Positions 46,348-60,874 of a stretch of 64,000 nt of DNA are shown piece after piece (within the stretch, counting starts at the first letter, position 1; every line of letters starts with the position of its first letter). This DNA comes from a virus. The stretch lies in IMG/VR virus record IMGVR_UViG_3300025929_000013, positions 44,848 through 108,847 of that record. One strand, given 5' to 3'. Position numbers and translations under genes: made by a program. The notes beneath the pieces were generated by a model. It made no database searches. It worked only from the letters and a program-made list of their open reading frames with translations, and was not told where the DNA came from.

Positions 46348-46380
46348 ATACTCATGCAGAAAAACAGCCGAGAGATCGGG

Positions 46381-47647
46381 TCAGTTGGTGTTGACGACCA
46401 CGACGGACTGATCGGTGATCAGGCCCATACCGAGGATCGCGTACCAAGCCAGTGCATGTTCACGTCCGAAGTCCAAGACGCCGCCGTCGCGCAATTCCAC
46501 TGGTAGAGAGATCGCGTGGCCGTAGGCGTTGTCGCCGATGAACGTTGAGGAGTACACATCGACCGGAACGGTGTTCTGTGTCTTCGTGACCTGAGTCGTC
46601 TCGATGAAGATCACGTCGAACAGACGTCCCACCTCACCAAGCATGAAATTCCCCGGAGCCGCATATTTAGTGACCTCGATGAACTCGGGCGCTTCACGCA
46701 AATGGCGCGATTGGTGCGGATGGATGAATCCGACGTAAGTCTCCCCAATCCGGGGCACATTCTTCGTCGCCAGGGTCTCCGCGACGTCGCGGATGGCGGC
46801 CGGGGTGAGGTTGTACGTCCCGGTCAGTCCGTTGGTGGAGGTGCCCACGGTGCCGAAGTCGTACGGGCTCTTGTTGGTGATCGAGCCGCTGGGGTTGGAG
46901 TACCCGAACAGCAGGCTGCTGGCCGTCTGCAACGTTGATTGGGCCAGATTATCAAGGTATTGAGCCATGTTGCGGCCCAGGAGACGGCTGGCCGAGGCCA
47001 TGACGTCGTCGAAGGACGCGTTGAGCAACAGCTCGGTGACAGCCACCGCATATCCATGCTCGGCGACTGTGATCGAGAACTGCGACGCCGTGAGGGCGTT
47101 GGTCTGCATGCGAACACCCTCGACGAGCTGCGCCGCAGCGCCCAGGTTGTTGTATCGCATGAAGTTGATGGTAAGACCTGGAGATACACCCAGTTCTGTC
47201 TTCTTCACAGCGAACTGCTCGAAGCGCAGAATCGGCATGGCCTGGAAGCAAGTTGTTACCCAGCAGTTACCCACTAGGGCCAGGTCGTTTCCGCCTGGCT
47301 CTGCACCTTTTCCATCGGTGCAGATCGGACTGTATCTTCGGCTCCAGTCCCGGTCGGCTATACCGGCCTTCCGGTCCTGTTGGAGTCGCCTCGCGTGCAG
47401 TCTCTACGGCGTCCCCGGTACGGGTTCCCTCGGTATTCCCCGTGCCACGAGTCATGTTCTACGAGCGTCGGTGGGGTTCACCGATACAGCGTGGTGTTTA
47501 CTCGCCGGTCACCCGACGAGGTCCCCTGGTGTCGAGGATTTCCTTCGACCATATAGTTTGGATCGCCTGCGACAGCTGGTTGTTGGACCCGCTGTAGTTC
47601 GTCGGCGAACCCGACAAGTTGGGTGTACCCGTGATCGCATTGGCCAT
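46381..47647 (-). CDS. major capsid protein (N4-gp56-like), two exons 47647-47535 and 47248-46381, 326 aa
   Basis: AGGAG RBS, then MANAITG...AIQTIWSKEIL joined to FQAMPILRFEQFAVKKTEL...HPHQ...GEVG...DFGREH..WY. Confidence 0.92.
47249..47534 (-). ncRNA. group I self-splicing intron (286 nt, no ORF) in the capsid gene
   Basis: Exon ends in U with a U.G pair in P1 (UCCU|C with GGGGA); terminal G; P UAUCGGUGAA, Q GAAUACCGAG, R GUAGAGACUGCA, S AAGAUACAGUCC; P7 GACUG/CAGUC; removal restores the frame. Confidence 0.93.
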
Positions 47648-47683
47648 GGTCGGCCGCTCCTATCTCGGGCGTGCTTGTCCAGC

Positions 47684-48466
47684 TCAGCGGTAGAGACCGC
47701 CCTGCCGGACCTGGTTGGAGGCTGCCGCGAGTAGTTGCTGCCGATGCGTCGCGTACTCCGCCATGGACATCTCGGAGATGTCTTTCGGAGTCAGCGTGCG
47801 CTGTGCCGGGTCTGTGTCCATCGGGCCGATGTTGGGGCGTCCGGTGGCGGACACCCCGCGCAGGCTGGCCTGACGCGCCTGCGCCTGTGCTCCCGAGATC
47901 GCGTCAACGATCGCGGAGGATTTGGCCGTGAGCATCGCGATCGAGGCGTCGATCTCCTCACGGGTATTGCCGGTCACCAGGTCCAGAAGCTCCGGGGCGA
48001 TCGCATCACGCGCCTCGTCGACCTTCGCCTGGGTGTACGACTTCAGCTCGTTGTACTGCCGTTCCTTGTCGAAGATCGCCCGCTCTTCCAGCCGCTGGCG
48101 CTCCATCTCCGCCATCTGGGCCTGCCAGCGCTCGGACTCCTGGCGAACGAAGTCCTTGGCGGACATCTCCGCCTCTTCCCGCGCCTTCTGCGCCGCGTCC
48201 GCGTCCGCCTTCGCCTTGGCGATCGCGTCGGCCTCGGCCTGGCGCTCGGTCTCCAGCGCCGCGAGCTTGGACTGGATCGAGTTGATCGTCTCGGACTGCT
48301 CGCTCAGGCGGCCGTAGAGCTTGTCGCGCTCGTCCTGGCGGGCCTTCTGAAGCGCCGCCTCGGTGAACATGCGCTCGGCGGCGGGGTCTGCGGACGGCGG
48401 GGGAGTGGGCACCGGCACCGGGATGGTGATGGTGCCTGCGGGGTCGGTGGTCGGATCGAGGTCCAC
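47684..48466 (-). CDS. capsid scaffolding protein
   Basis: Coiled-coil; KARQDERDKLY...ISEMSMAEY..RQQLL; between portal and capsid. Confidence 0.8.
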   Translation of the reverse strand: MDLDPTTDPAGTITIPVPVPTPPPSADPAAERMFTEAALQKARQDERDKLYGRLSEQSETINSIQSKLAALETERQAEADAIAKAKADADAAQKAREEAEMSAKDFVRQESERWQAQMAEMERQRLEERAIFDKERQYNELKSYTQAKVDEARDAIAPELLDLVTGNTREEIDASIAMLTAKSSAIVDAISGAQAQARQASLRGVSATGRPNIGPMDTDPAQRTLTPKDISEMSMAEYATHRQQLLAAASNQVRQGGLYR

Positions 48467-48469
48467 GTG

Positions 48470-50167
48470 TCACGTCTCCGAAGACTTGTTGGTGTCCGGA
48501 TTTCGCCACTGGGCCAATTTCGTCCCTGCGGCGAGTGCCACGAGTTCGTCCTGTATTTTCTTCGTGTCCTCGCTCAGCCCGCCCACGCCGGGAAGGCCGG
48601 GGAGCGGAGCGGGGTCGCCGGACGCGGGGCCCGGCGGTGGTGCGGGCGGCTCTACCCCCTCTGGGGGAAGGCCGGTCATGTCGAGGATAACACTGGCTAT
48701 CTGAGCCTTTAGTAGGTCCAGTACACCCTGGTGTTTGGTCTCCTCAAGCTGCTCGTCGAAGATCTCGGCCAGTGCGTCGGCCGGGAACTCCTCGCCCAAT
48801 TCTCGCAGCGCCCCGCGCTTGGACGTGAGCCCCAGCTGCAACTTAACCATCAGCTCGTTGAGTTTGACCAGGACGTCGACCGGCAGCGGCGGCGGGAAGT
48901 CGGCGACCGTGCGGTAGACGAGGGGGTCGGTGGGGTCGAGCACGTCGGCCTGGCTGGGATCTGTCTTGAGTCCCTCGGTGTCCGGGTCGTAGTTCAGGGT
49001 CTGCGGCTCGAACAGGAACAGCGTGCGCAGGGCGAGCTCGTTGATGCGCGCGAACCCCGCGGAGTACTGGATGATCTTGCGGTGGTAGCGCAACATCATG
49101 GGCTGATATTGAATGCTGAGTGCCACGCCACTGGTGTTGCTGACCGGCTGCTCCTGGCCGAGCGCGTTCTCCGGCACGCCCGTCATCTCGTGCATCGCGG
49201 TCTTCAAAAACTGGAGGTACTGGAGCGCCCACTCCAGCTCGATGTTGTTCTCCAGGTTGTAGACCTTGGCGTCCTTGGGCAGCCCGCCCCACACCTTGCG
49301 AGGGCCCTTCTCAAGATTCGAAGCTTTGGCCCCTGAGATAATCGTCACCGGCGCCGCGTGGTAGTCGATGATCTCGCTGATGTTCGTGGCTTGCTCGTTG
49401 AGTTCCCTGTTCAGCGAGATGATGTCCGCGATGTCGGACAGCCCCCAGGGCGACCCGGGCACCTCGATATTCGTGATCGGCACGATCGGGATCTCGCCGA
49501 GCCCGTTGGGGTGCGAGTCGATCAGCTCATCGTTGATGTACTCCTCGACATACTCGTCCGTGATGATCTCAGTGTATGTATATACCTGCCGCGTGCCCTC
49601 TGTAGAGGTACCCCAAAAGCGGTATTTTAGCTTAAAACGGACAAGTCGCTCAGGATCGTGTGGATGATATTCAGGGAATGCGAAGCTCGGGTTGATCGCC
49701 AGCAGCCGCACGCGGCCGGGGTGCTGCATCCCCGCGGCGTCCGTCCACGCGGGCTCATACGCCACCTTCACGAAGACGTCCCCGCAGACCCCGGCGAGCT
49801 CGCCGATCTGCATCAGGAGCTTGTCCTTGCGGTTGTCGACCTCCCACACCCTTTTGAGCAGGGCGGGGACGATGTGCTCGGTGGCCTTGTCGCTGGCGAA
49901 GTGCACGCCGCGCGAGAAAGTGAAGGAGGTGATGAAGCGGGAGAACGCCGCCGTGTAGTTGAAGGTGAGCTGCGTTTCGCCCGATTCGCGACGATATCCC
50001 CAGTGATGTCCCAAAAACCACGCCAGATTCTGGGCATAACGGTTCAAACGTGGACCATGCACCTCAAATTCCTCGTCGGCCAATTCGACGAGTCCGAGGG
50101 GTGATATAGCAACGGTGAGATCCGACGCCGCGGCCCGCATGGAGGGGGACGGGAACGACATCGACAC
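48470..50167 (-). CDS. portal protein (SPP1 gp6-like)
   Basis: GDVFVKV, NGLGEIPIV, WGLSDI, NTSGVAL; size and position. Confidence 0.9.
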   Translation of the reverse strand: MSMSFPSPSMRAAASDLTVAISPLGLVELADEEFEVHGPRLNRYAQNLAWFLGHHWGYRRESGETQLTFNYTAAFSRFITSFTFSRGVHFASDKATEHIVPALLKRVWEVDNRKDKLLMQIGELAGVCGDVFVKVAYEPAWTDAAGMQHPGRVRLLAINPSFAFPEYHPHDPERLVRFKLKYRFWGTSTEGTRQVYTYTEIITDEYVEEYINDELIDSHPNGLGEIPIVPITNIEVPGSPWGLSDIADIISLNRELNEQATNISEIIDYHAAPVTIISGAKASNLEKGPRKVWGGLPKDAKVYNLENNIELEWALQYLQFLKTAMHEMTGVPENALGQEQPVSNTSGVALSIQYQPMMLRYHRKIIQYSAGFARINELALRTLFLFEPQTLNYDPDTEGLKTDPSQADVLDPTDPLVYRTVADFPPPLPVDVLVKLNELMVKLQLGLTSKRGALRELGEEFPADALAEIFDEQLEETKHQGVLDLLKAQIASVILDMTGLPPEGVEPPAPPPGPASGDPAPLPGLPGVGGLSEDTKKIQDELVALAAGTKLAQWRNPDTNKSSET

Positions 50168-50230
50168 CGCTGGCCCCTCCCTTCAGTGAGTTGATCTACA
50201 CCTAGACTTACCGAGCTGTGCGCAGGAGTG

Positions 50231-51376
50231 TTAGTGGCCTACTTCGCGCTGCATGTGTTTGATCAGTTCGTCGCTGCCGGTGTGGAAGAGCTCGGCGAAG
50301 TTCTTCGCGGCGCGCGCGATGTGCTCGCGGCGCTCGCGCACCGGATCGCGGTGGGCGTGGCCGGTGCGCGCCTCCTGCTCCTGCGGGTTGGCGGCGGCGT
50401 GCGCGTGGATCTTCGCGATCGCAATACGCTGCTCGCCGCCGCGTACCGCCTCGTGGGCCTGGTCGGCGCGTGCGTGCGCGGCCTGCGCCTCGTTCTCGGC
50501 CCGCGCGCTCTCCTCGGCGGTCTCGGCCCGCGCGGTCTTGGCGTGCGCGATGTGGACTTTCTCCTCGGCGAAGTGCGTCTTTTCGATGTTCGCGTGGTGG
50601 GCGACCTGCGCGCGTTGCGCGGCGACCTCCGCCAGGGCCATGCCGTGCTCGACGCTGCCCTTGCCCCGGTTCGGGTCCGCGGCGACCTCCTCGGCCTTGC
50701 GCTTGGCCGTCAGGACGTCCGCAGCCGCGGCAGCCCGCGCGACACCGGCGCGGTTGGCCAGCATCCGCGAATGCGAGGCCCTCTCCATGTGCATGGAGAC
50801 CTCGGGATTGCTGCGCCCCTCATCGACACTCGCGGCCCCGGGATGCGTCTCCAGCGTCTTGCGCAGCGCCGCCGCCTTCTGCTCGTGGACAGCCGCCGAG
50901 CGTGCGTCGCCCTCCGCGATGAGTCTGCGGTGCTGCTGCTCGTGCCACCCGGCGAGCGCGGTCATCTGCTGCGGGGTGTGCTGGACCTGCGGCTGTGGCG
51001 TCGGCGCGGCCTTTTTCGCGGCGGGCGCAGGGCCCTGATGCAGGTGCGCGTGCGCCGCGGTGTACGCCGCAGCCGCAGAGGGCGCAGGGGGAGAGGGGGC
51101 CGCGCGCTGCGCATCCGCCGGGGGGGAGGAGGCGGCTGCCTTCTTCGCAGCGCGCGGCGGCTTGGGGGCGGACGACTTCGGCCGGATCGGCACCGTAGCG
51201 CGCCGGTTCTCCGGGTCTGCCCGCGCTGCGAGCGCGTGATTCGGGCCACCCGGCAGATCGGTCACATCACCCGAATGCTTGCGAAGCTGCTCCTGGTGGT
51301 GTGCGCGCGCCTCGTCGCTCAGGCCCGGACTTGCCAGGGCGCGCCGGTGGAACGCCGCCTTCGGGTTGTCCGCCAT
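50231..51376 (-). CDS. hypothetical Ala/His-rich low-complexity protein
   Basis: 381-aa ORF with GAGG RBS, co-oriented with neighbours. Confidence 0.65.
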   Translation of the reverse strand: MADNPKAAFHRRALASPGLSDEARAHHQEQLRKHSGDVTDLPGGPNHALAARADPENRRATVPIRPKSSAPKPPRAAKKAAASSPPADAQRAAPSPPAPSAAAAYTAAHAHLHQGPAPAAKKAAPTPQPQVQHTPQQMTALAGWHEQQHRRLIAEGDARSAAVHEQKAAALRKTLETHPGAASVDEGRSNPEVSMHMERASHSRMLANRAGVARAAAAADVLTAKRKAEEVAADPNRGKGSVEHGMALAEVAAQRAQVAHHANIEKTHFAEEKVHIAHAKTARAETAEESARAENEAQAAHARADQAHEAVRGGEQRIAIAKIHAHAAANPQEQEARTGHAHRDPVRERREHIARAAKNFAELFHTGSDELIKHMQREVGH

Positions 51377-51385
51377 GGCGATGCC

Positions 51386-51778
51386 TCAGTCGTTGATGAC
51401 TTCGGCGGCGGTGCGGTTCTGGTGGCGCCCGTTGCGGATCACCGCTTCGTACTTGACCTCCGCAATGTGCGAAGTTCCATGTGCGAACTCACCCAAGAAG
51501 CTCGGGGCGTCCGGCCACGCGGCACTGCCCAGGTGGGCGCGCTCGCGCATGGTCTCCTCCGGTGGCTTCTCATAGACATTCATGTTGTGATTCGGTCGAC
51601 CGGGAGGGGTCTTGTACCCCTGCATGGCGCCGACCGACAGCTCGCGGGGAACGTCCGTATTTGTACTGATTCCTTCCTCGAACCGCAAAACGCCGCGGCG
51701 GGAAGGGTTTGACGTTTGAACGGCCTCGTAGTGGACCGGCGAGCGCTCGTCGAACTGCGGAGCGGGAGACAAGCCCAT
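51386..51778 (-). CDS. hypothetical phage protein
   Basis: AGGAGG RBS, ATG 51778; LRFEEG.STNTDVP...RERAHLGSAAW. Confidence 0.8.
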   Translation of the reverse strand: MGLSPAPQFDERSPVHYEAVQTSNPSRRGVLRFEEGISTNTDVPRELSVGAMQGYKTPPGRPNHNMNVYEKPPEETMRERAHLGSAAWPDAPSFLGEFAHGTSHIAEVKYEAVIRNGRHQNRTAAEVIND

Positions 51779-51833
51779 GATGGAAACCTCCTGGTAGGTC
51801 GTTTCCAGTCTCGGGCCGGTTGCCGCGCATGTG

Positions 51834-52154
51834 TTAGTCGCCGTCGTCGCGCGCGACCAGCGCGTCATGCTGCACGACCCAGATCACCGCGAGGCGCCAC
51901 AGCGTGATCGCGGACACCAGGAAGAGGCTGCCGCCGTAGTACCACGCGAACCAGGGGTAACTGACGTTGAGCCCGAACAGCAGATGCAGCGCGCTGGGCA
52001 GCAGGGCGAGCAGCAACGCCATGTCGAGCGAGGCCACCGCGCGCCCGACCGGGCTGCGCCACCACGGCGCCAGCAGGCTGTAGCCGACCAGGAAGGTCAG
52101 CGTGCTGAAAAACGCCACGATCGCGCTGACGTGATCGAAACTAACCGCGGTCAT
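51834..52154 (-). CDS. holin-like three-TM protein
   Basis: Three hydrophobic helices; YSLLAPWWRSPVGR. Confidence 0.7.
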   Translation of the reverse strand: MTAVSFDHVSAIVAFFSTLTFLVGYSLLAPWWRSPVGRAVASLDMALLLALLPSALHLLFGLNVSYPWFAWYYGGSLFLVSAITLWRLAVIWVVQHDALVARDDGD

Positions 52155-52377
52155 GCCGATGCCCCTCTGCCTCGCTCAGCATCAGGACAATGCGAGTGCT
52201 GAAGTGGTTTTCCGCGCGCAGTTTGCGCAGCTGTGCCCCCAGGGCGTGGACCTCCACGGCGCGCTCCTTCGTCGCCGCCAGGGCGCGCTCGGACTCGGCG
52301 ACGGCGTCGGCGGCCTGGCGCAGTCCCTCGTCGTCCGGGCGGTTGGGCGGACGCCGCTTACGCCACATGCGTGCCAT
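52141..52377 (-). CDS. small coiled-coil protein of an actinophage membrane cassette
   Basis: MW.KR...LRAENHFS. Confidence 0.65.
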   Translation of the reverse strand: MARMWRKRRPPNRPDDEGLRQAADAVAESERALAATKERAVEVHALGAQLRKLRAENHFSTRIVLMLSEAEGHRHDRG

Positions 52378-52696
52378 CGGGACGGTTCACCTCGATCTCA
52401 AGCACCGCGGGCTCCGCCGAGGGCAGAGAATTAAGGACCTGGGTGGTGGTGCGTGCGACCTCCATCAGCTCGCCGACATGGCTGTCGGCCAGGTGCCGCG
52501 AGACCACCGCCGTCTCATACGCGTGCTGCCACATGTCGGACTGCTTCTGAAGCGCGCTGATGCGCTCGTTGCGGTCCTCAAGCCGGTCGCGCATCGTGCG
52601 CCGGGGCACCAGCTGGCCGGTGAGGATCAGCAGCACCACGATGCCGAGCAGGACCGCGGCGCTGGTCTGGAGCTCGGGCAGCCCGAAGATCGTCAT
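52358..52696 (-). CDS. single-TM plus coiled-coil membrane protein
   Basis: ATG 52696; VLLILTGQLVPRR...WQHAY. Confidence 0.75.
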   Translation of the reverse strand: MTIFGLPELQTSAAVLLGIVVLLILTGQLVPRRTMRDRLEDRNERISALQKQSDMWQHAYETAVVSRHLADSHVGELMEVARTTTQVLNSLPSAEPAVLEIEVNRPDGTHVA

Positions 52697-52974
52697 CGGG
52701 CCTCCGGGTCCTGCTCGGCGTGGGCGGCCAGGACGTCGGCGTGCGACGGGGCGCCGTCGGGATGGTGCTTGCGGCACACCACGTACGCGGTCCCGGCGAC
52801 CGGATGCCGCCCGACCCGCCAGCATTTATCGACGTGGCAGTTGTGCTTGCGCACGATCGCGACCAGGCCGCCGACCATCGCCAGCTCGCCGATGTCGGAG
52901 CCGCTGCCGGACCAGAATCCGTAGTAGGGCCCTGACAGGTTGTCCATGCCGAGCACGTGCGCGAGCCAGCTCAC
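52693..52974 (-). CDS. hypothetical membrane/zinc-finger protein
   Basis: GTG 52974; YGFWSG...HNCHVDKCWR.G...CRKHHP. Confidence 0.7.
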   Translation of the reverse strand: MSWLAHVLGMDNLSGPYYGFWSGSGSDIGELAMVGGLVAIVRKHNCHVDKCWRVGRHPVAGTAYVVCRKHHPDGAPSHADVLAAHAEQDPEAR

Positions 52975-53417
52975 GGCGTGATGTCCTTCGCCGGGATGAA
53001 CTCGGCCGGGGATGCAACACCGGCCTTCTTGTACCTCACCGCCTGCCACAGCGGCTCGGGCAGCACGTGGATCCCGTAGTGGGTGCGGTGGTGCACTTCG
53101 CAGAGCACTTCCAGGTTCCCGGGGCTCTCGATCCACTGCTGGAACTGCTCGTCGGTGTCGAAGTGCAGGCCCAGCGCGCGCCCCACCTTGCCCGGGTCCG
53201 CTGCGTTCGCCTCGGAGAACTCGATCACCGAGTGGTGCAGCTCCGGCTGGCCGTCACACAGCTCGTCGTCGACCACGCATTTGAACAGGCCCTGGCGCTT
53301 GAGCTGCGACTTCGCGGCCTCGAACAGGTGGTAGTGCGGGTCGTCGGCGCGCGGCGCGTGCGCCTCGACGTGCTGGCGCAGGTGCAGTGTGAGCATCTGG
53401 TCATGCGCGGCGGTCAT
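52971..53417 (-). CDS. HNH-like His/Cys protein
   Basis: C...C...ELHH...NLEVLCEVHHR..GIH. Confidence 0.6.
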   Translation of the reverse strand: MTAAHDQMLTLHLRQHVEAHAPRADDPHYHLFEAAKSQLKRQGLFKCVVDDELCDGQPELHHSVIEFSEANAADPGKVGRALGLHFDTDEQFQQWIESPGNLEVLCEVHHRTHYGIHVLPEPLWQAVRYKKAGVASPAEFIPAKDITP

Positions 53418-53493
53418 CGTTCTCTCCCGGCGAGGTGGTTTCATCGCCAGCGTAAAGAGAACACACGCACGAGTGTTAAGGTGCGGACATCAA

Positions 53494-53579
53494 TGGGGCG
53501 GGTGGGAGGATTCGAACCTCGCAGTGCGCCCGGGGGTATAAACCAAGACGCGCCCGGAACCCGACTCCGGTGCACCCGC
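53494..53579 (-). tRNA. atypical tRNA-like element, identity uncertain
   Basis: Acceptor GCGGGTG/CACCCGC, C discriminator, encoded CCA, D-like stem CCGG/CCGG, T-loop GAGG-TTCGAAT-CCTC; anticodon arm oversized. Confidence 0.65.
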
Positions 53580-53587
53580 ACGCTCAA

Positions 53588-53880
53588 CGCTCCGGCGGGG
53601 TCTGGCCCAAGAGCCGGTTAAAAACAGAGCCGCTTGCGCGGCCCTCCTGAGGTGGGTTAACACCCCGCCGGAGCGGCAGCAGCCTAGCACCTGTATAAGA
53701 AGCCGGGCGGCCCACCAATGAAGGATGGACCGCCCGAGGACGGCGGGACTACGCTATAGGGCAGACCATCTCTGGTCCGCACGCCGCGTGAAGCGGCCTT
53801 TAAGCGGGCGGTTGCCGCCGCCGGACAGTGAACAAGGCCGAAGCCATGTCAACTTAACCGGGACCAGACTACGCCCTGCC
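53588..53880 (-). ncRNA. cluster of structured non-coding RNA domains
   Basis: 14-bp perfect stem 53588-53601/53662-53675 enclosing a GCAA hairpin; 13-bp hairpin 53704-53736; multibranch domain 53760-53880 with a cUUCGg loop. Confidence 0.65.
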
Positions 53881-53882
53881 GG

Positions 53883-54302
53883 TCAGCGGTTCCAGGCGAC
53901 CATGTAGACGCTGGTGGTGAAGGTGGGCGTCCCGGTGCCGCCGACTGTGAAGCTCAGGCGCCCGCCGTTGAAGACGGGGCCGGAGGCGACGGCGGTGTAC
54001 GTGATCCCGGTGGCGTTGAGCGCGGTCGTGGTCAGGGCCGCGGTCCCGTTGTAGGTGGCGCCGCCGTCGATCGACTCCGCGTACGCGACGGTCAAGGTCG
54101 GCGAGGACCCGCCGGTCAGGGCGCTGATGTTCACCACCAGCTTGACCTTGCCGCCCACTGCCATGTACGGCAGGGTGAAATAGGCGGTGGTGTCGGTGAC
54201 GGTGATCGGCTGCGCGCTGACGAGCGTCTGGACCCACCCGTCGAGGTAGGCACCGACATTGCCGTCGACCGGAGCGGTGGACGAGGCGAGGGTGACGGCC
54301 AT
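53883..54302 (-). CDS. beta-sandwich virion-like protein
   Basis: Thr/Gly-rich beta-strand pattern; AAGGA RBS. Confidence 0.7.
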   Translation of the reverse strand: MAVTLASSTAPVDGNVGAYLDGWVQTLVSAQPITVTDTTAYFTLPYMAVGGKVKLVVNISALTGGSSPTLTVAYAESIDGGATYNGTAALTTTALNATGITYTAVASGPVFNGGRLSFTVGGTGTPTFTTSVYMVAWNR

Positions 54303-54531
54303 GGAGGCGTCCTTCCGTAGCGGTGTCCCGATGCGGCGAGCGGGCTACGGACAGGACTTAAGTGTTGGTCTCTGGGTGGTTCGATCCCAGGATAGACAAC
54401 GCATGGAGAAGTGGGTTAGGTGCGGGTTTGCAGCGACGCTGCGTGTGTGGTGGGATTGCCCAAGCCTCTTCTAGCGCTGGGGCGGATACCGAGATGCCAA
54501 CCTTTTAGTCGGGGTGCAGCACTCGGATGGC

Positions 54532-54567
54532 GTGGCCCCTCCCCGGTCTGAACATGGGAGGGGTCAT
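54532..54567 (-). terminator. hairpin immediately after the terminase stop
   Basis: GTGGCCCCTCCC/GGGAGGGGTCAT inverted repeat. Confidence 0.6.
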
Positions 54568-54569
54568 TG

Positions 54570-56159
54570 CTATCGGCGGAACAGGTCGCCGCTCTCCTCG
54601 ACCTCCGGCATCACGGCGTCGGCTGTGAGGGCGACCGCGTTGGCCAGGGAGTCCACGTAGTCGTCATGCGCCTCGGCCGCCTTCGGCGCCGCGACGATGA
54701 TGTTCGGGCCCTCATAGCGCAGCTCGGCGTCCTCCATCTGCGCCCTGAAACGTCGCCAGGTGCGCAGCCGCCGGGTCTTCGCGTGGCCCGGCCAGGCGAT
54801 ATTCCCCGAGGACATCAGGGCCATCAGGTGCTTCCAGCGCTTGGACTGGGCGCCGCGGTCGCTGGGCATGTCCACCACATCCACTCCGGGCAATAGGACG
54901 CGAAGGCGCGACGCGACGACGTCGCCGACGCCGCCGGAGTCGATCCCGACGGCCAGCACGCTGTAATTGGCGAGGAACTCGACGATCCGGAAATACTGGA
55001 CCTCCCAGTCCAGGCCCGTCAGGTCCAGCCAATTAAGCACACGGTGTTCGTAGGCTCCGAACTCATCAGGGTACGACCAGTTGACCCAGACGATCGTGAC
55101 GATCGTGCTGTCCTGCTTGCGCGCGCAGTCGATGCCGACCAGGCACGGGCTCTTGTGGTAGGACTGCACGACCTGCATGGACGTGTCGGAGAGCTCGTCC
55201 ATCTTCTCGCTGGTGGTGAACTGCCCCTGCTCCAGCAGCCAGAGCAGCCTATACGAGAGCTTAAATTCGTCACTGTCCTCGCCGATGCGCAGGATCTCCT
55301 TGGAGACGAATTTCTTGTAGTTGCCGTTGCTGCGGCTGACCAGCTTCCAGTCCGCTTCGAAGTGGTTGACCCGTCCGCGCCGGGAGCCCGCGGTGCGCTT
55401 GTTGTGCTGGATCTGGCGGTAAAACACCCCCTTGGTGTACGTGGGCGTCCCGGTCCACACCATCGTCGCGTTCGTAGACGCACCCATGGGTGTAATTGAC
55501 TTGTTCACCACGCGCTCGTCGGCGTCCTGGGCCTCGTCGATCAAGATCAAATGGTAGGTTCTTCCTTCGATCTTGGCCCGCGGGTGGCAGGTGGTCTTGC
55601 GCACCAGAGAGCCGGAGCGCAGCAGCCGCAGCTCGCGCCCCTTGACGATGACCTTCTCGTCGATCTCCGGGTCCGCCATGATCGCCATCGCGCGGTCCGA
55701 GGTCAGGCGCTCCACGATTCGGCCGAATAGGTTGTCTGCCTGTTCATCAACGGGGGCGAATGCTCCGACCCACATACCCTCGGCGAACTTCTCCAGCAGG
55801 TCGGGAAATACGATCGCGAGCAGCGGCAGCATGATCATGCACGCGGCAACCACATTAGCTACGGTCTCTGATTTTCCACTTTGGCGGCTGAACAGGGCGG
55901 TTATCGTCTCGCCGTCGCCGATGACGAGCGACTCGATCACGCGCCTGGCGAACACGACCTGGTAGGGGCGCAGCGGATGGCCGGACAGCTCATCTACCAC
56001 GATCAGCATGCGGGCCACGATGTGGTCGACGGCCTCGCGCGAGAGCGGGTCGAGCACGACCTCGGAGGCCATTCGGGCGGCGCGCTCGGCGAGAGTCTCG
56101 TCGGAGTACTCCTGCGCCATCCCCTCCAGAAGCGCCTCGTCCACCCCGTCTCCTCTCAA
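54570..56159 (-). CDS. terminase large subunit
   Basis: LRPYQ, SRQSGKS Walker A, ILIDEAQ Walker B, TGTP, GID...D and HDDYVDS nuclease motifs; start may be ATG 56120. Confidence 0.93.
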   Translation of the reverse strand: MRGDGVDEALLEGMAQEYSDETLAERAARMASEVVLDPLSREAVDHIVARMLIVVDELSGHPLRPYQVVFARRVIESLVIGDGETITALFSRQSGKSETVANVVAACMIMLPLLAIVFPDLLEKFAEGMWVGAFAPVDEQADNLFGRIVERLTSDRAMAIMADPEIDEKVIVKGRELRLLRSGSLVRKTTCHPRAKIEGRTYHLILIDEAQDADERVVNKSITPMGASTNATMVWTGTPTYTKGVFYRQIQHNKRTAGSRRGRVNHFEADWKLVSRSNGNYKKFVSKEILRIGEDSDEFKLSYRLLWLLEQGQFTTSEKMDELSDTSMQVVQSYHKSPCLVGIDCARKQDSTIVTIVWVNWSYPDEFGAYEHRVLNWLDLTGLDWEVQYFRIVEFLANYSVLAVGIDSGGVGDVVASRLRVLLPGVDVVDMPSDRGAQSKRWKHLMALMSSGNIAWPGHAKTRRLRTWRRFRAQMEDAELRYEGPNIIVAAPKAAEAHDDYVDSLANAVALTADAVMPEVEESGDLFRR

Positions 56160-56264
56160 GCCCCGGATATTCCGAGGCTATGAGCGGTTCCGGGAGGAGT
56201 GTTAGGGTCCCGCCCCGGCCGCTGAGCTGCGTATATACTCCAAGGACTCGGAGCTTGGAGGTAA

Positions 56265-56531
56265 TTGGTGATCACCGTGGAGTACGTGGACGACGGGACA
56301 CTGCCCGCTCTGCTCAAGCCACAGATCGTTGCTCAGATCCCCGAATACCCCGGAGTTGAGATGCACGTCATCCGCTTCGAGCCGCGCCCGGGTGATGTCG
56401 CGTATTGTTTTCGCCACTACTTCATCCGGGAAGAGCGATGGCAGGGCTCGTTCGCCACCACCATCGCCGCCGCCGGTGACCTCGGACAGGTGCTCTGCGA
56501 CAACGCGGTCTCCCCACGGCAGACCCTGTGA
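56265..56531 (+). CDS. hypothetical protein
   Basis: GGAGG RBS; first of a small plus-strand trio. Confidence 0.65.
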   Translation: MVITVEYVDDGTLPALLKPQIVAQIPEYPGVEMHVIRFEPRPGDVAYCFRHYFIREERWQGSFATTIAAAGDLGQVLCDNAVSPRQTL

Positions 56532-56773
56532 AGACCCCGTACGTCTACTGCGCCATGTGCGCGGTGCCCCTGGGCACCGGCCGTCAACGCGACATCTACT
56601 TCTGCGGCGACTACTGCAAGCTGTTCTGGCCGGGCCGCAAGCTCTACTACATGACCGACCGCGACGAGGTCGTCCGTTTCCTGTTCCACGGGGCGCAGTA
56701 CGACACGAGCGAGCTTGGATCCCTGTATGGACGCAGCCGACAGGCCATGGAAGCGATCATAAAGGGCAAGTAG
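56528..56773 (+). CDS. small zinc-finger-like protein
   Basis: CAMC...FCGDYC; GTGA overlap. Confidence 0.65.
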   Translation: MKTPYVYCAMCAVPLGTGRQRDIYFCGDYCKLFWPGRKLYYMTDRDEVVRFLFHGAQYDTSELGSLYGRSRQAMEAIIKGK

Positions 56774-56802
56774 TACCCTGGTAGTAACTAAGGGGAGGAA
56801 TC

Positions 56803-57012
56803 ATGGGACTGATCTTCGAGATCTTTCTCGCGTGGCGCGGCTTCCTGCTCGGCGCCGCCGCCAAGGAGCGTAGTGACGCGCGCGCCGCACGCAACCCCGG
56901 GCGTGAAAGCCTGCGCCGGGTGCTTACCCGGGTCGCCGGGATCGCCTTCGTGGTATGGCTGCTTGGCTTCCATGGCCTGCACATGATCGAGACCACGCTC
57001 AGCGGTCGCTAG
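56803..57012 (+). CDS. small membrane protein
   Basis: GGAGG RBS; hydrophobic segments. Confidence 0.65.
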   Translation: MGLIFEIFLAWRGFLLGAAAKERSDARAARNPGRESLRRVLTRVAGIAFVVWLLGFHGLHMIETTLSGR

Positions 57013-57242
57013 AGCTTCGCCTGCTTGAACTGGCGGCGCAGCCCCTCGGTCAGCGCCGCCTTCGCGCGTAGCCTCGCCTCGACCTCGTCGAGCGCGTGCG
57101 GGGAGTGACTGCGCTCGAACTCCTTCCACGCCGCGGTGAAGCCCATGATCTCCTGGCTCATCCAGGCCCGCATCGTGGGCTCGTCCATGCGCGACACCCG
57201 CCTGCGCATACGTGTATCGCGCAGGCCCTCCAGGATTCTCAC
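57009..57242 (-). CDS. hypothetical protein
   Basis: GTG 57242 overlapping the upstream stop. Confidence 0.6.
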   Translation of the reverse strand: MRILEGLRDTRMRRRVSRMDEPTMRAWMSQEIMGFTAAWKEFERSHSPHALDEVEARLRAKAALTEGLRRQFKQAKL

Positions 57243-57505
57243 GCGTTCTCCTCGATCAGGGTACGTACGTCGTGTTCGATGCGCTCGTGTCCGCGGAACC
57301 CGAGCGAGCGCATCGCCTGCTCCTCGTCGGTGAATCCGGTCTCGCGCCACCAGCCGAGCACCAGCGCCCAGCCGAACCCGAGGCGCAGCACCAGCGCCGC
57401 CGGGTCCGCGCGGTACGGCGGGTCCATGTCCTGGCAGCGCACCCGGTAGGCCAGGGGGAACCCGGGCAGCACCCGGGTCCACTGCACCAGCGGGCGCGGC
57501 CTCAC
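57239..57505 (-). CDS. hypothetical protein
   Basis: GTG 57505 after GGAGGA. Confidence 0.6.
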   Translation of the reverse strand: MRPRPLVQWTRVLPGFPLAYRVRCQDMDPPYRADPAALVLRLGFGWALVLGWWRETGFTDEEQAMRSLGFRGHERIEHDVRTLIEENA

Positions 57506-58089
57506 TCCTCCACCTGGAAGAAACGGGTGGGGCGGAACGCCTCGTCGACCGACGCGTAGGGGTAGGTGTCCAGCACGCGGTCGATGTAGCGGCCCGGGGA
57601 GTTGCTGCGCTGGAGGTTGCGCCACACGCTGCGCGGCACGTTGTAGTACTCGTAGACGGCCCCGTTCGGGAACATCTTGTCCGCGCCGACGCGAAAGCGG
57701 ATGCGCACGGTCTGGGAGCGCGAATCGTATCCGGCGGCCTCGGCGCGCGGACGGCGCGGGTTGCTCGGGCTCTCCGGGCGGTCCGGGTGCTTGAGCGTCC
57801 ACGAGGACTGGGCGCGCAGGTCCTGAGTGAACAGCGCCGTATCGTCGCCGCCGATCGCGTCGGCGAGCGCGTTGCGGGTGCGCTTGCGCTGGCGGTACTC
57901 GGCCCGCTCCTGCTCGCGCCCGACGATCTCCTGCTGGATCTCGACCGGGTAGCTGCGGATCTGGCGTCCCGTGCCCGGCGCCCCGAAGACGCCGGAGGCC
58001 ACATGCCGGTCGTACGCGGACGTCGCGATGCCCGAGCGCCGCGGTGACGGCGCCTTGATCTGCGGGATGCTGGGTCGGCGGCGCGGCAT
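57502..58089 (-). CDS. KTSC-domain protein
   Basis: AGYD..SQTVRIRF...GAVYEYYNVP..VWRNL..SNSPGRYI. Confidence 0.8.
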   Translation of the reverse strand: MPRRRPSIPQIKAPSPRRSGIATSAYDRHVASGVFGAPGTGRQIRSYPVEIQQEIVGREQERAEYRQRKRTRNALADAIGGDDTALFTQDLRAQSSWTLKHPDRPESPSNPRRPRAEAAGYDSRSQTVRIRFRVGADKMFPNGAVYEYYNVPRSVWRNLQRSNSPGRYIDRVLDTYPYASVDEAFRPTRFFQVEE

Positions 58090-58090
58090 G

Positions 58091-58258
58091 TCAGCCCGCC
58101 GTGATCCGCGCCCGGGTCGCCTCGTACCGCTTCCAGCACGCCGCGCAATAGTTGATCATCTCGTGCACACCGCCGCCGTCGGTCTGCGCGACGGCTTTCT
58201 CGTCCGGGTGGTTGGCGCACATCCCGAGCTCCGGCGCCGGGGCGCTGCGGCTGGCCAT
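58091..58258 (-). CDS. small Cys/His (B-box-like) protein
   Basis: CANHP...YCAAC. Confidence 0.6.
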   Translation of the reverse strand: MASRSAPAPELGMCANHPDEKAVAQTDGGGVHEMINYCAACWKRYEATRARITAG

Positions 58259-58313
58259 GACAGACCCCTTTCCTACGGTTGTTTCCACCGTAGGACGCCG
58301 TACGCCGGGGGTG

Positions 58314-58709
58314 TTACCCCATCGGCAGCGACACCAGCCCGCTCGCGCGCACCGGCTTGTACTCGGCGTCGCCGCTCACCGCGGACATCCGCGCGGCGTG
58401 CGCGCGCTCGACGATCTCGTTGAACCGGGTCAGGCCCAGCAGGACCGCGTCGCCGTACAGCTCCAGCACCGCGTGGGCGAACGCGACCGACGCGTCCTCG
58501 AAGCCCGCCAGGACGACCTCGTCGCTCGCACCGGCCTCCAGATCGGACAGCAGCTTCCACACCGCGCCGAGCAGCTCCTTGGTGTTCTCCGCGATCACCG
58601 CGGAGCGCTGCGTCAGAACGCTGACGGCGACTACCCGGTCGCGCAGGTCGACGGGCTCGATCCCGTACGCCGCGCAAAACTCCGCGGCCGAGTCCATCGG
58701 GTCGTTCAT
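58314..58709 (-). CDS. hypothetical protein
   Basis: GAGGAG RBS. Confidence 0.7.
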   Translation of the reverse strand: MNDPMDSAAEFCAAYGIEPVDLRDRVVAVSVLTQRSAVIAENTKELLGAVWKLLSDLEAGASDEVVLAGFEDASVAFAHAVLELYGDAVLLGLTRFNEIVERAHAARMSAVSGDAEYKPVRASGLVSLPMG

Positions 58710-58798
58710 GTGCGCTCCTCGGCTCGAACCGGCCCTGGTCCGAACCTAAGCCCGCCGCGGGCGCCTATATGAGGGCTACATGAGGACCCAAATGAGCT

Positions 58799-59263
58799 CT
58801 ACTCGACCGGCTCGGGCTCCTCGGCGTCATGCCCGCGGTTCTCCACCACCCGGCCGTTGATTTTCGCCAGTTCTTCGGGACTGAAGATCTCTTCTCGCCG
58901 GACTCTGTCGAGCAGGTCGGGGAACTCGCCGTAGAGCCAGATGAACTGCATAAGCGCATCGTTGCGCAGCGGGCCTGAGTGCTTGGCGACGACCTCCGAC
59001 CCGGCTGCGCGCAGTACTCTGCGGACATACGTGGTCTCGACGAGCCGCCCGTCCGGTGCCTCGGTGGGCGGATACTTGCGCCATTGCGCAACCTCCGCAC
59101 CCGCGAGGAACAGAGTGCGCATCCGGTCTTTGCACGCGGGACACAGCAGCGGTGCGAACGCTTGTGCGTTCAGGGCGACATAGGTCGCCTGGGTACCTGG
59201 TACCGGATTTTCACACTTTCGGCCGTCAGGAAACTTGCCTATACATCTGCCGAGAGGCTCCAT
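58799..59263 (-). CDS. divergent Lsr2-like protein
   Basis: TYVALNAQAFAPLLCPACKDRM...VRRVLRAAG.EV..HSGPL resembles the two Lsr2 domains. Confidence 0.45.
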   Translation of the reverse strand: MEPLGRCIGKFPDGRKCENPVPGTQATYVALNAQAFAPLLCPACKDRMRTLFLAGAEVAQWRKYPPTEAPDGRLVETTYVRRVLRAAGSEVVAKHSGPLRNDALMQFIWLYGEFPDLLDRVRREEIFSPEELAKINGRVVENRGHDAEEPEPVE

Positions 59264-59297
59264 CAACGCTCCAGGGTTGGATTCGAGATAGACGAGA

Positions 59298-59480
59298 CTA
59301 CCAAGTCGTCTGCGCGCCACCACCACCCTCCGGAGAATTCTCAGTGTCCGGTGCCCCAAGCAACCGCAGGCAGCGCGTGCAGACCGGGAGTTGAACCTCG
59401 CCGGTCGCCAGCAGCTCCAGGATCGCGCGAAGCAGCTCGGCGTCCTCGATGTCATCCCAAATGCCCGTCTCCTCCGCCAT
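59298..59480 (-). CDS. hypothetical protein
   Basis: AGGAGG RBS before ATG 59480. Confidence 0.5.
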   Translation of the reverse strand: MAEETGIWDDIEDAELLRAILELLATGEVQLPVCTRCLRLLGAPDTENSPEGGGGAQTTW

Positions 59481-59654
59481 CAGGCCTCCTCGTACGCGCG
59501 CTGTGACGTGATCACCCTGCCCTACGAACGCTTGAACACCGGCACGGTTCCCGCCCATTGGGCCATCCGAGTGACACCGCAGGAATCATTTCCATCTGCA
59601 CTTGCACCGGGATTACTTTCTGTGCGGGGAGACGTACGAAATCTGGGAGCTGAC

Positions 59655-60017
59655 ATGCCGAGAACCCGTCCGTGCGAGAGGTGCGGAATCGACTCCGACG
59701 TGGTGCGCGAACTCGAACGCGCATATGCGATGCAACTGTCCTGGCGCACCGTATGCGACAACTTGGACACCGAGCTGCACGGCGCCGCGGCGACCGTCAA
59801 ATATCTCAATACCCGCGGGTTCGCCCCGAGCCGCCGCATCCCGGGCACCTGGCTGCTGATCACCGATACCGGCGGTTTCGCGGTGCGCGTGCCGGAGCCG
59901 GACGCCGAGGACTGGGCCGAGACGATGGCCGACCTGGTCCTGGTGCTTGCCGTGCAGTACCGCAAGGGCGAGCTGGGCATCCTGGCCGACATCGAACGCT
60001 GCGGTGACGACGCATGA
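59655..60017 (+). CDS. hypothetical protein
   Basis: GGAG RBS, ATG 59655; first of a plus-strand operon. Confidence 0.65.
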   Translation: MPRTRPCERCGIDSDVVRELERAYAMQLSWRTVCDNLDTELHGAAATVKYLNTRGFAPSRRIPGTWLLITDTGGFAVRVPEPDAEDWAETMADLVLVLAVQYRKGELGILADIERCGDDA

Positions 60018-60283
60018 CCGACCGGTGCCCACACTGCGCGGCCAGCCTCATCGGAGACCCGATCCCCCAGGCGTCACGTGACCGCGGCTACCTGGGCGAC
60101 CGGACGCATTACCGGCGCGAGATCGGCATCGAGATCCGCGGGGTCTACGACGGAGTCCTGTACTGGCAGTGCCCCGACTGCGGACGGGCGTGGAACCGGT
60201 GGTCCCCGAAGGACGGCCACATCTACACCGCCGCCCAGGAACGCGTCGAGCGGGTGAACGCGCGCGTGGAGGAAGCCTTGTGA
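60014..60283 (+). CDS. zinc-ribbon protein
   Basis: CPHC...YDGVLYWQCPDCG. Confidence 0.75.
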   Translation: MTDRCPHCAASLIGDPIPQASRDRGYLGDRTHYRREIGIEIRGVYDGVLYWQCPDCGRAWNRWSPKDGHIYTAAQERVERVNARVEEAL

Positions 60284-60684
60284 GGCGCGCCGCCCAGCAC
60301 AAGGCGCGCGTCGTACGCCCCGCCGCGCCACCGGCGCCGGACGGGTACTGCGAGACCGTCCTGCGCATCTACAACCGCGCCGACAATTTCGACGGCCTGC
60401 TCTGGGCTTGCGGTCCCGGGGGCATCCGGTTCTTCGCCCGCTGCCCCAACCTCTTCCGCTGGGCCGACGAGGACGCCGAGCTGATCGGGCCGCACGACAT
60501 CGAGCTGCTGGAGCAGTGCCTGGCAGACCTCGGGCCGTGGACCGGCTTCCTGAGTGAACTGTTCACCGTGCGCAAGCGCGGCGCCCGGCCGCTGTGGATG
60601 TGGCTCGCGGAGAACCCCAACGTCGCGGACATCTTCGAGAAGGCTGTCCGCCCCGACAGTACGGAGCATGATGACCAAGTCTGA
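60280..60684 (+). CDS. hypothetical protein
   Basis: GTG 60280 overlapping the upstream stop. Confidence 0.65.
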   Translation: MRRAAQHKARVVRPAAPPAPDGYCETVLRIYNRADNFDGLLWACGPGGIRFFARCPNLFRWADEDAELIGPHDIELLEQCLADLGPWTGFLSELFTVRKRGARPLWMWLAENPNVADIFEKAVRPDSTEHDDQV

Positions 60685-60874
60685 GGAATTCGAGGCGGCC
60701 CAGCGCGCCCGGCTCGAAACCCCGCTGAGCGATGAAGAGCTCGACGAGTACCGCGACGAGGACGCCAGACGTGGAACGGACGACGTCGCTCCACCGCTGA
60801 CCAAACTCCAAGAGCAGCGGCGCCGCCTTCTGCGCTACATCGACGGCCTTCTCAAGCAGCTGGGGGAGAAGTGA
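60668..60874 (+). CDS. hypothetical protein
   Basis: GGAG before ATG. Confidence 0.6.
   Translation: MMTKSEEFEAAQRARLETPLSDEELDEYRDEDARRGTDDVAPPLTKLQEQRRRLLRYIDGLLKQLGEK

What the first reader, a model, noticed from the sequence alone, without database searches (positions are those of the whole stretch)
53588..53880. Unassigned cluster of structured RNA domains upstream of the tRNA-like element
Seen on the minus strand, with no credible ORF. (a) 53880-53760: a long closing stem (GGCAGGGCGT..TCTGGTCC with GGACCAGA..ATGGTCTGCC) around three hairpins, one capped by cUUCGg; its 3' arm can alternatively fold as GCGGACCA-GAGA-TGGTCTGC, which is switch-like. (b) 53736-53704: a 13-bp hairpin. (c) 53675-53588: a perfect 14-bp stem closing a three-way junction with a GCAA-capped arm, ending 8 nt before the tRNA-like 5' end. 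Stable tetraloops and G.U pairs favour RNA-level function on this strand. Inference: one ~390-nt ncRNA or a processed polycistronic ncRNA array next to the terminase. I cannot match it to a known family.
Basis: partly seen in the sequence, partly recalled or inferred. Interest (0 to 1): 0.8.

Follow-up and report, generated by a model that had tools for sequence, protein, structure and literature searches.

The report
Orphan hairpin-rich terminator spacer in phage
The hairpins are real and non-coding, but the stretch occurs only in this phage, and two of its hairpins are best read as the stop signals of the gene before it, so nothing yet shows a new RNA gene.

Summary
Observation confirmed. 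On the minus strand, 53588-53882 has no coding signal and folds into three separately closed domains, each well below shuffled controls (z -3.6, -4.1, -5.3).

The ncRNA-gene interpretation is only partly supported. The stretch matches no Rfam family. It is also absent from everything searched: its own 109-kb genome, 129 loci of related phages (sequence and covariance-model searches), 24 whole relatives' records, public phages and plasmids, and about 800 actinomycete genomes. Covariation therefore cannot be tested.

In the five relatives that keep the same two flanking genes, the spacer holds at most one strong hairpin and a conserved promoter-like motif (about 120-180 nt in three, almost none in two). 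Here a segment of about 400 nt that only this phage has (53480-53882, tRNA-like element included) takes that place.

Hairpin (b) and the GCAA-capped arm of (c) are the two best terminator-like sites in 20 kb. Both sit directly after gene pA, in its orientation. pA has its own promoter-like motif.

Best reading: this is the 3' untranslated and termination zone of pA, probably acquired together with a tRNA-derived cassette. Domain (a) and the 14-bp clamp of (c) remain unexplained stable structures. A dedicated RNA fused to the tRNA-like end is not excluded (about 0.1-0.2). Interest is low to moderate.

The parts
54388..54420 (-). Promoter-like motif of pA (CCTAACCC ... TATCCTG)
   Evidence: TAACM-N16-21-TANNCTG occurs only twice in the 64-kb window against 0.09 expected, and only twice in the whole genome. 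Sequence. Contigs from three RNA libraries covering pA all stop at 54367/8, about 20 nt downstream of the -10-like hexamer. This is a weak hint only.
53883..54302 (-). pA, 139-aa gene of unknown function whose 3' flank is the finding
   Evidence: GC3 is 0.96. Homologues lie in L002-L006. No Pfam or PHROG hit. The Atlas model is a beta-sandwich with a weak lead to Bbp16.
53760..53882 (-). Domain (a): four-way junction with UUCG-, CAA- and UUCAC-capped hairpins
   Evidence: MFE -63.2, z -3.61. Hairpins 1 and 3 have probability above 0.9. The closing stem is at about 0.5, competing with the hairpin at 53761-53780 (0.47). No homologue was found with covariance model R2.
53738..53759 (-). Unpaired linker a-b (CCUAUAGCGUAGUCCCGCCGUCC region)
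   Evidence: The only two differences in an independent DNA contig (run X4, 53642-53795) fall here, at 53752 and 53755.
53693..53737 (-). Hairpin (b) plus tail CUUCUUAUAC: terminator-like site T1
   Evidence: 14 pairs, 10 of them G-C, then 5 T in 8. It is the top-ranked terminator-like site in 44001-64000. It is second strongest of 9 genome-wide in my own scan. Pair probability is 0.94. It sits where the single strong hairpin sits in L002-L004.
53588..53675 (-). Domain (c): perfect 14-bp clamp around a three-way junction
   Evidence: Inverted repeat of 14 nt at 100%. z -5.33, probability 0.99. No homologue with model R1.
53616..53645 (-). GCAA-capped arm of (c) plus GUUUUUAACC: terminator-like site T2
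   Evidence: 8 pairs, 6 of them G-C, tetraloop, U5 tail. Second-ranked site in 20 kb. Probability 0.99. The 3' arm of the 14-bp clamp lies downstream of its U-tract, so the clamp can form only in read-through RNA (geometry read from the sequence).
53494..53579 (-). tRNA-derived element with encoded CCA (a separate finding; part of the same lineage-specific segment)
   Evidence: ARAGORN finds none. Rfam gives only tRNA-Sec at 18.7 bits, E 0.62. Its T-arm plus 3' acceptor strand (21 nt) is identical to tRNA-Ile(GAT) genes in L149 and L150. It folds no better than shuffles (z -0.55).
53448..53481 (-). Promoter-like motif of pB (CCTTAACAC ... TACGCTG)
   Evidence: Conserved in L002, L003 and L004 (alignment A1). 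Unique pattern match.
52971..53417 (-). pB, conserved HNH-like protein; its start is probably ATG 53417 rather than 53444
   Evidence: Alignment A2 has invariant Cys/His motifs. Weak HNH PHROG hit. GGGAGA precedes ATG 53417, and the relative L004 starts at MTAAHDQ.

Best explanation
The 293-nt stretch is the front part of a non-coding segment of about 400 nt that only this phage has (53480-53882). That segment fills the gap between two conserved genes, pA and the HNH-like pB. It is most likely transcribed only as the 3' untranslated tail of the pA mRNA and serves as that unit's termination zone.

Hairpin (b) with its CUUCUUAUAC tail, and the GCAA-capped arm of (c) with its U5 tail, are two Rho-independent terminators in tandem. 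They stop transcription from the pA promoter before the pB promoter.

Domain (a), and the 14-bp clamp of (c) that can form only in read-through RNA, are extra stable structures. Their likeliest effect is to shield the mRNA 3' end from 3'-to-5' exonucleases.

The segment was probably acquired together with the tRNA-derived element, replacing a simpler hairpin spacer.

Shown:
- The structures are present.
- The stretch does not code.
- It is unique to this phage among everything searched.
- Terminator-like and promoter-like motifs sit at these positions.

Inferred:
- That termination happens there.
- The protective role of (a) and the clamp.
- The single acquisition event.
For: Context. Minus-strand order is TerL, pA, the gap, pB.

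Relatives. Five relatives keep pA and pB next to each other. From the pA stop to the pB start the distance is 182, 177, 124, 20 and 17 nt, against 465 nt here. The three longer spacers each hold one strong 11-15 bp hairpin with a U-containing tail. A conserved CTTAACA..TACGCTGG motif follows. The position therefore keeps a function, terminator plus promoter, and not a sequence.

Terminators. (b) and the inner hairpin of (c) are the two top terminator-like sites in 44001-64000, both in gene orientation. Only about 9 comparably strong sites exist on both strands of the 109-kb genome, and (b) is the second strongest.

Promoters. The same promoter-like motif precedes pA and pB and occurs nowhere else in the genome (0.09 matches expected in the 64-kb window). 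A looser form precedes TerL. These genes therefore look like separate transcription units.

Expression of pA. pA has the highest GC3 (0.96). It is the only part of the locus found in contigs of three metatranscriptome libraries.

No RNA family. Rfam gives no hit. No homologue was found by blastn, nhmmer or covariance models anywhere.
Against: - No transcript ends were observed. Contigs cannot show them.
- The tail of (b) is only moderately U-rich.
- One hairpin is enough in the relatives. The 121-nt four-way junction (a) and the perfect 14-bp clamp are more than termination needs.
- A tRNA-derived element with encoded CCA sits 8 nt after the clamp, downstream of both terminators. This model gives it no role.
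- TTAA is rare in the genome (28 copies), yet five lie in this 408-nt stretch. Four of them sit in predicted junctions of (a) and (c). This is unexplained.
Confidence: 0.5

Rival explanations
1. It is a dedicated phage non-coding RNA, or a processed array. Domains (a)-(c) are made as one precursor with the tRNA-derived 3' module. RNase P cuts at the tRNA-like 5' end (53579/53580) and releases a ~300-nt structured RNA whose 3' end is protected by the 14-bp clamp.
For: - Each domain folds well below shuffles, and better on the minus strand.
- There is no coding signal.
- The tRNA-like part is truly tRNA-derived and carries CCA.
- It follows the clamp by 8 nt.
- TTAA is enriched in the junctions.
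- In a second sample the insert differs at only 2 of 154 positions, both in an unpaired linker.
Against: - No homologue exists anywhere, so there is no conservation or covariation.
- It has no promoter-like site of its own.
- Two strong terminator-like hairpins lie between any upstream promoter and the tRNA-like end.
- The closed form of (a) is only about 50% populated.
- The closest relatives do without it.
Confidence: 0.2
2. It is a functionless relic. A cassette holding a tRNA gene and its flanks was captured by illegitimate recombination in the variable region downstream of TerL and is now decaying. The hairpins are leftover terminators and flanks from the donor, with no role beyond not harming the phage.
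For: - The region downstream of TerL is variable among relatives. Some carry tRNA arrays there or nearby.
- The tRNA-like element has a mismatched T-stem pair and an oversized anticodon arm. Neither ARAGORN nor Rfam calls it a tRNA.
- The segment is unique to this lineage.
Against: - Decay should erode a perfect 14-bp helix and the 12-14 bp hairpin, not keep them intact.
- A terminator is needed at this position in the relatives too, so at least (b) or the inner hairpin of (c) is probably in use.
- No donor was found.
Confidence: 0.2
3. It is a DNA-level element: a small non-autonomous mobile element (MITE- or PATE-like, with hairpin ends) or a protein-binding inverted-repeat site.
For: - Both strands fold significantly.
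- The two ends of the stretch are loosely complementary (CCGGCAGGG..TCTGGTCC against GGGCCAGACCCCGCCGG).
- The stretch behaves as an insertion relative to L002 and L003.
Against: - It is single-copy in its own genome.
- It is absent from relatives' records, plasmids, phages and about 800 actinomycete genomes.
- No target-site duplication is visible at the boundaries.
- G.U pairs make the minus-strand RNA fold consistently the better one.
Confidence: 0.07

Closest known systems
Tandem Rho-independent (intrinsic) terminators at the end of a strongly expressed phage gene
   Same: G+C-rich hairpins followed by U-rich tails, in gene orientation, directly after a gene with its own promoter-like site and before the next promoter. 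Relatives carry one such hairpin at the same place.
   Different: The second terminator hairpin is nested inside a perfect 14-bp clamp. A 121-nt four-way junction precedes the first. Termination itself was not measured.
Lambda sib/tI retroregulation (own knowledge, not checked in a paper here)
   Same: A terminator hairpin whose read-through transcript can form a longer helix using sequence downstream of the terminator. Terminated and read-through RNAs therefore have different 3' structures. The clamp of (c) has this geometry.
   Different: A 14-bp helix is shorter than typical RNase III sites. There is no evidence of antiterminated read-through or RNase III cleavage here. This is a resemblance in how it may work, not membership.
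Stable small RNAs co-transcribed with phage tRNA genes (T4 species 1 and 2 RNAs); GOLLD and ROOL RNAs that sit beside tRNAs in phages (Rfam GOLLD RF02032; own knowledge for the rest)
   Same: Structured non-coding RNA directly upstream of a tRNA-type element in a phage, near the packaging genes.
   Different: No Rfam hit to GOLLD, ROOL or any other family even at E up to 10. Not conserved in any relative. The neighbouring tRNA-like element is not a canonical tRNA.
tRNA-like 3'-end processing signals (MALAT1-mascRNA, PMC8457004; plant mitochondrial t-elements)
   Same: A tRNA-shaped module directly after a very stable helix could let RNase P define and protect the 3' end of the upstream RNA.
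   Different: Those are eukaryotic or organellar systems. Processing here is untested, and two terminators precede the module.

Membership tests
Intrinsic (Rho-independent) terminator | G+C-rich stem-loop immediately followed by a U-rich tract | tested here: met
   (b): 14 pairs, 10 G-C, tail CTTCTTATAC. Inner hairpin of (c): 8 pairs, 6 G-C, tail GTTTTTAACC.
Intrinsic (Rho-independent) terminator | Lies downstream of a gene, on its strand, ahead of the next promoter | tested here: met
   Both lie after the pA stop (53883) and before the pB promoter-like motif at 53448-53481.
Intrinsic (Rho-independent) terminator | Transcripts end at the U-tract | not testable with these tools
   Only contigs of public runs were available, and none covers the region in RNA libraries.
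Any Rfam family (including GOLLD, ROOL, HEARO, tmRNA, RNase P, T-box, ribozymes) | Covariance-model score at or above the gathering threshold | tested here: not met
   0 hits in the window at gathering thresholds. At E up to 10 over 53300-54000 there are only chance-level hits. The best is tRNA-Sec at 18.7 bits on the tRNA-like element.
Group I intron | Conserved catalytic core (P3-P8, P7 with the AAGAUAUAGUC-type segment) detectable by RF00028 | tested here: not met
   No Intron_gpI hit at E up to 10. The same model does see the capsid element of this phage (17.1 bits) and a portal intron in L006 (56.6 bits). The stretch does not align with the capsid element.
tmRNA or tRNA gene | Recognised by ARAGORN; tag reading frame for tmRNA | tested here: not met
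   ARAGORN finds 0 genes in the window. No tag-like frame ending in Ala-Ala is seen when reading the sequence.
Conserved structured ncRNA (generic criterion) | Homologues with compensatory base changes | tested here: not met
   No homologue to test. Absence of homologues is not proof of no function.
MITE/PATE-type non-autonomous mobile element | Several copies with defined ends, terminal repeats or hairpins, and a target-site signature | tested here: not met
   Single copy in the genome. None in the relatives or in about 800 actinomycete genomes searched. No duplication at the boundaries.

The most novel reading that the evidence does not exclude
The ~400-nt segment that only this phage has encodes a composite RNA. 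A ~290-nt multi-domain body is fused, 8 nt after a 14-bp clamp, to a tRNA-derived module with encoded CCA. The terminator-like hairpins act as structural arms or leaky attenuators. RNase P releases the two parts. This would be a previously undescribed RNA-plus-tRNA-mimic unit of an actinomycete phage, possibly a decoy for host tRNA-targeting defences.
Probability: 0.12. Interest if true: 0.6.

Novelty: new member of a known kind. Interest (0 to 1): 0.25.

Why it matters
If the best reading holds, the region is ordinary: a phage gene's terminators plus some extra hairpins. The useful lesson is practical. In 68% G+C phage DNA, strong folding scores alone do not identify an RNA gene.

The side results help annotate this uncultured group of actinomycete phages. 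They are a phage-specific promoter-like motif in front of TerL, pA and pB, and a variable slot downstream of TerL that takes up tRNA-type cassettes.

If the stretch does work together with the tRNA-derived element as one RNA, it would be a new example of phage tRNA mimicry joined to a structured RNA. That rests on one sequence and needs experiments.

Tried and rejected
Homologue searches that found nothing, or chance hits only:
- blastn against INPHARED phages and PLSDB plasmids.
- blastn and nhmmer against 41, then 129, related loci.
- blastn-short against the phage's own genome.
- BLAST against 24 whole relatives' records.
- Two Nonomuraea prophage hosts, 401 Streptosporangiales genomes and 401 Actinomycetes genomes.
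- Exact 17-21-mers in viral contigs. Searches gave chance hits in coding DNA. One search gave only ordinary tRNA-Ile genes.
- One 20-mer in metagenome contigs, which gave a chance hit in 42% G+C DNA.
- Single-sequence covariance models of (c) and (a) over 668 kb of loci and the phage's own genome.
- A pA protein pattern search in viral contigs, which found nothing.

Ideas rejected:
- Small ORFs: GC3 is not gene-like.
- Read-through of the pA TGA into the stretch, or a SECIS-type element: the extension frame shows no coding signal and the tRNA-like element has no UCA anticodon.
- HEARO/omega-RNA of an HNH protein: no Rfam hit, and pB homologues in about 80 loci lack the RNA.
- Group I intron.
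- Homology between the tRNA-like region and the L002/L003 spacer, which MAFFT suggested: not significant against shuffles.
- Extra promoters at the TTAA sites: no -10-like hexamer at the right spacing (reading).

Sequencing runs:
- RNA-library contigs cover only pA (54005-54368) and not the stretch. With contigs this says nothing about whether the stretch is transcribed.
It was redone with 120-nt windows.

Full report
CONTEXT. The window is the last 64 kb of a 108,847-bp IMG/VR virus record of about 68% G+C, estimated complete. Around the finding all genes lie on the minus strand:
- TerL, 54570-56159 (Terminase_6C and PHROG 2).
- pA, a 139-aa gene of unknown function, 53883-54302.
- The gap.
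- pB, a conserved HNH-like protein, 52971-53444 as listed. It more likely starts at ATG 53417, which is preceded by GGGAGA.
- A holin-family gene, and the portal at 48470-50167.

Related prophages with 65-66% TerL identity lie in two Nonomuraea genomes. The host is therefore probably an actinomycete.

The three structures are at the stated places. Each folds far below dinucleotide shuffles on the minus strand:

| Domain | MFE (kcal/mol) | z, minus strand | z, plus strand |
|---|---|---|---|
| (a) | -63.2 | -3.61 | -2.76 |
| (b), 64-nt context | -30.0 | -4.07 | -3.70 |
| (c) | -53.7 | -5.33 | -4.29 |

- The whole 438-nt gap gives z -3.68 on the minus strand and -2.98 on the plus strand.
- In the ensemble of a 421-nt transcript, several helices are essentially fixed: hairpin (b) at 0.94, the 14-bp clamp of (c) at 0.99, its inner GCAA hairpin at 0.99, and hairpins 1 and 3 of (a) above 0.9.
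- The closing stem of (a) is only about 0.5.
- The 14-bp perfect inverted repeat is one of only two of that quality in 64 kb.
- Against the genome's own background, 120-nt windows of the region rank 25th to 205th of 2719. That is high but not extreme.
- No ORF in the gap has gene-like codon bias: GC3 is 0.66-0.73 against 0.82-0.96.

NO KNOWN FAMILY.
- Rfam gives no hit in the window at gathering thresholds.
- At E up to 10 it gives only chance-level hits. The best is tRNA-Sec at 18.7 bits on the neighbouring tRNA-like element.
- ARAGORN finds nothing in the window.
- The group I intron model does detect other elements in this phage group: 17.1 bits in this phage's capsid gene and 56.6 bits in the portal gene of L006. 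It does not detect the finding, and the finding does not align with the capsid element.

NOT CONSERVED.
- Forty-one TerL-related loci and 80 pB-related loci were fetched. Only five contigs (L002-L006) keep pA next to pB.
- From the pA stop to the pB start they measure 182, 177, 124, 20 and 17 nt, against 465 nt here.
- The alignment shows the relatives going from the pA stop almost directly into a short spacer. It ends in a motif shared by all four aligned sequences, CTTAACA..TACGCTGG.
- MAFFT suggested similarity between the tRNA-like region and the L002/L003 spacer, but it is not significant against shuffles. The whole 53480-53882 segment, tRNA-like element included, is therefore found only in this phage.
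- No search found a homologue. These covered the phage's own genome, 129 loci, 24 whole relatives' records, public phages and plasmids, about 800 actinomycete genomes, exact-word scans of viral and metagenome contigs, and single-sequence covariance models of (a) and (c).
- The only independent sighting is a 154-nt DNA contig from a rhizosphere run. It covers 53642-53795 with two changes, both in the unpaired a-b linker. That is too little for a covariation test.

WHAT THE POSITION DOES IN THE RELATIVES. The spacers of L002, L003 and L004 each contain one strong 11-15 bp hairpin followed by a U-containing tail, and then the promoter-like motif. The position thus keeps a function, terminator plus promoter, and not a sequence.

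SIGNALS IN THE WINDOW.
- The consensus scan finds two terminator-like sites in the gap, both on the minus strand. One is hairpin (b): 14 pairs, tail CTTCTTATAC. The other is the GCAA-capped arm of (c): 8 pairs, tail GTTTTTAACC.
- They are the two top-ranked sites in the 20 kb from 44001 to 64000. Most other hits there are weak and antisense to the genes.
- My own stricter scan finds about 9 such sites on both strands of the whole genome, with (b) second strongest.
- The motif TAACM-N16-21-TANNCTG occurs exactly twice in the genome, in front of pA and in front of pB. Only 0.09 matches are expected in the 64-kb window.
- A looser form also precedes TerL and perhaps the gene at 57009-58220. These packaging-region genes therefore look like separate transcription units driven by one promoter type.
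- pA has the highest GC3 (0.96). It is also the only part of the locus present in contigs of three metatranscriptome libraries. Those contigs all stop at 54367/8, about 20 nt past the -10-like hexamer. This is a weak hint only.

INTERPRETATION. The simplest account is that the finding is the 3' untranslated and termination zone of pA. Hairpin (b) and the inner hairpin of (c) act as tandem intrinsic terminators.

Because the 3' arm of the 14-bp clamp lies downstream of the second U-tract, the clamp can form only in read-through RNA. This geometry recalls lambda sib/tI (own knowledge). It would give read-through RNA a different, very stable 3' structure.

Domain (a) has no assignable role beyond a stable 3'-UTR structure.

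The neighbouring tRNA-like element is truly tRNA-derived:
- Its T-arm and 3' acceptor strand (21 nt) are identical to tRNA-Ile(GAT) genes of two unrelated viral contigs.
- Its 5' acceptor strand also matches the full-length gene in L149, and its D-loop resembles it.
- It is not callable as a tRNA.
- It sits downstream of both terminators and has no promoter-like site of its own.

Some more distant relatives carry tRNA arrays near TerL. The segment was therefore probably captured as a tRNA-type cassette in a variable slot.

WHAT REMAINS OPEN.
- The structure present is more than termination needs.
- The tRNA-derived CCA module follows the clamp by 8 nt.
- Five of the genome's 28 TTAA sites lie in this 408-nt stretch, four of them in predicted junctions.

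Without homologues, a promoter or transcript data, I put that at about 0.1-0.2.

NOTES FROM THE SAME SCAN. Other notes describe rows of small RNA modules beside tRNA-like elements in other phages. They are unchecked leads on unrelated DNA, and I give them no weight as support. The scan has not seen this sequence on other DNA.

VERDICT. The stretch stands alone and is not conserved. It is best filed as a new instance of an ordinary kind: tandem terminators and a structured 3' UTR inside a spacer that only this phage has. Interest 0.25.

Noticed in passing
window 56175-56206, 54388-54420, 53448-53481 (minus strand); perhaps 58287-58316: A shared promoter-like motif, CCT(T)AAC(A/C)C then about 18-20 nt then TAnnnT, stands in front of TerL, pA and pB. 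The strict form occurs only twice in the 109-kb genome. It is also conserved in front of pB in L002-L004. It looks like a phage-specific promoter class for the packaging-region genes.
   Followed up: partly
window 53494-53579 (minus strand); L149:11416-11492, L150:2270-2321: The tRNA-like element is tRNA-derived. Its T-arm and 3' acceptor strand (21 nt) are identical to tRNA-Ile(GAT) genes in two low-GC viral contigs. Its 5' acceptor strand GCGGGTG also matches the full-length gene in L149, and its D-loop is similar. The anticodon arm is about 10 nt too long and the first T-stem pair is C.C.
   Followed up: partly
A relative, L006, has a clear group I intron (56.6 bits) splitting its portal gene. 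L006 also holds two copies of sequence similar to the capsid element.
   Followed up: partly
window 53476, 53618, 53657, 53800, 53854: TTAA is strongly avoided in this genome (28 copies in 108.8 kb), yet five copies lie within 408 nt here. This is the densest cluster in the genome. Four fall in predicted single-stranded junctions of domains (a) and (c), and one in the pB promoter-like motif.
   Followed up: partly
window 53888-53898 and 53551-53561 (minus strand): The last codons of pA (CGCCUGGAACC) are complementary over 11 bp to the D-arm region of the tRNA-like element (GGUUCCGGGCG). The predicted pair probability is 0.86, and the pairing would enclose the whole finding. L002 and L003 have a similar GGAACCGC/GCGGUUCC pairing between the pA end and their terminator hairpin. 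This could be chance.
   Followed up: no
window 54005-54368: Contigs of three rhizosphere metatranscriptome libraries carry pA at 99-100% identity. All stop at 54367/8, just downstream of the pA promoter-like motif. DNA carry-over cannot be excluded.
   Followed up: partly
window 53883-54302 (minus strand): pA is a predicted beta-sandwich protein found mostly in viruses. The ESM Atlas gives a weak lead to Bbp16, a Pfam family (PF21190) that I recall as a phage capsid cement protein. It appears on only 10-14% of members of two nearby clusters. pA may be an abundant capsid accessory protein.
   Followed up: partly
window 52971-53444 (minus strand): pB is a conserved small HNH-type protein with invariant C..C, HH, N, C and HH motifs, found in more than 100 viral contigs. 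It is syntenic with the packaging genes, so it is more likely a packaging-associated HNH protein than a homing endonuclease.
   Followed up: partly
window 54303-54569 (minus strand): The 267-nt gap between TerL and pA starts with a G+C-rich hairpin (CCCCTCCC..GGGGAGGGG) that has no U-tract, directly after the TerL stop. It then carries the pA promoter-like motif.
   Followed up: no
genome C1:31396-31471 (outside the window): The only canonical tRNA gene of the phage is a tRNA-Met(CAT).
   Followed up: no
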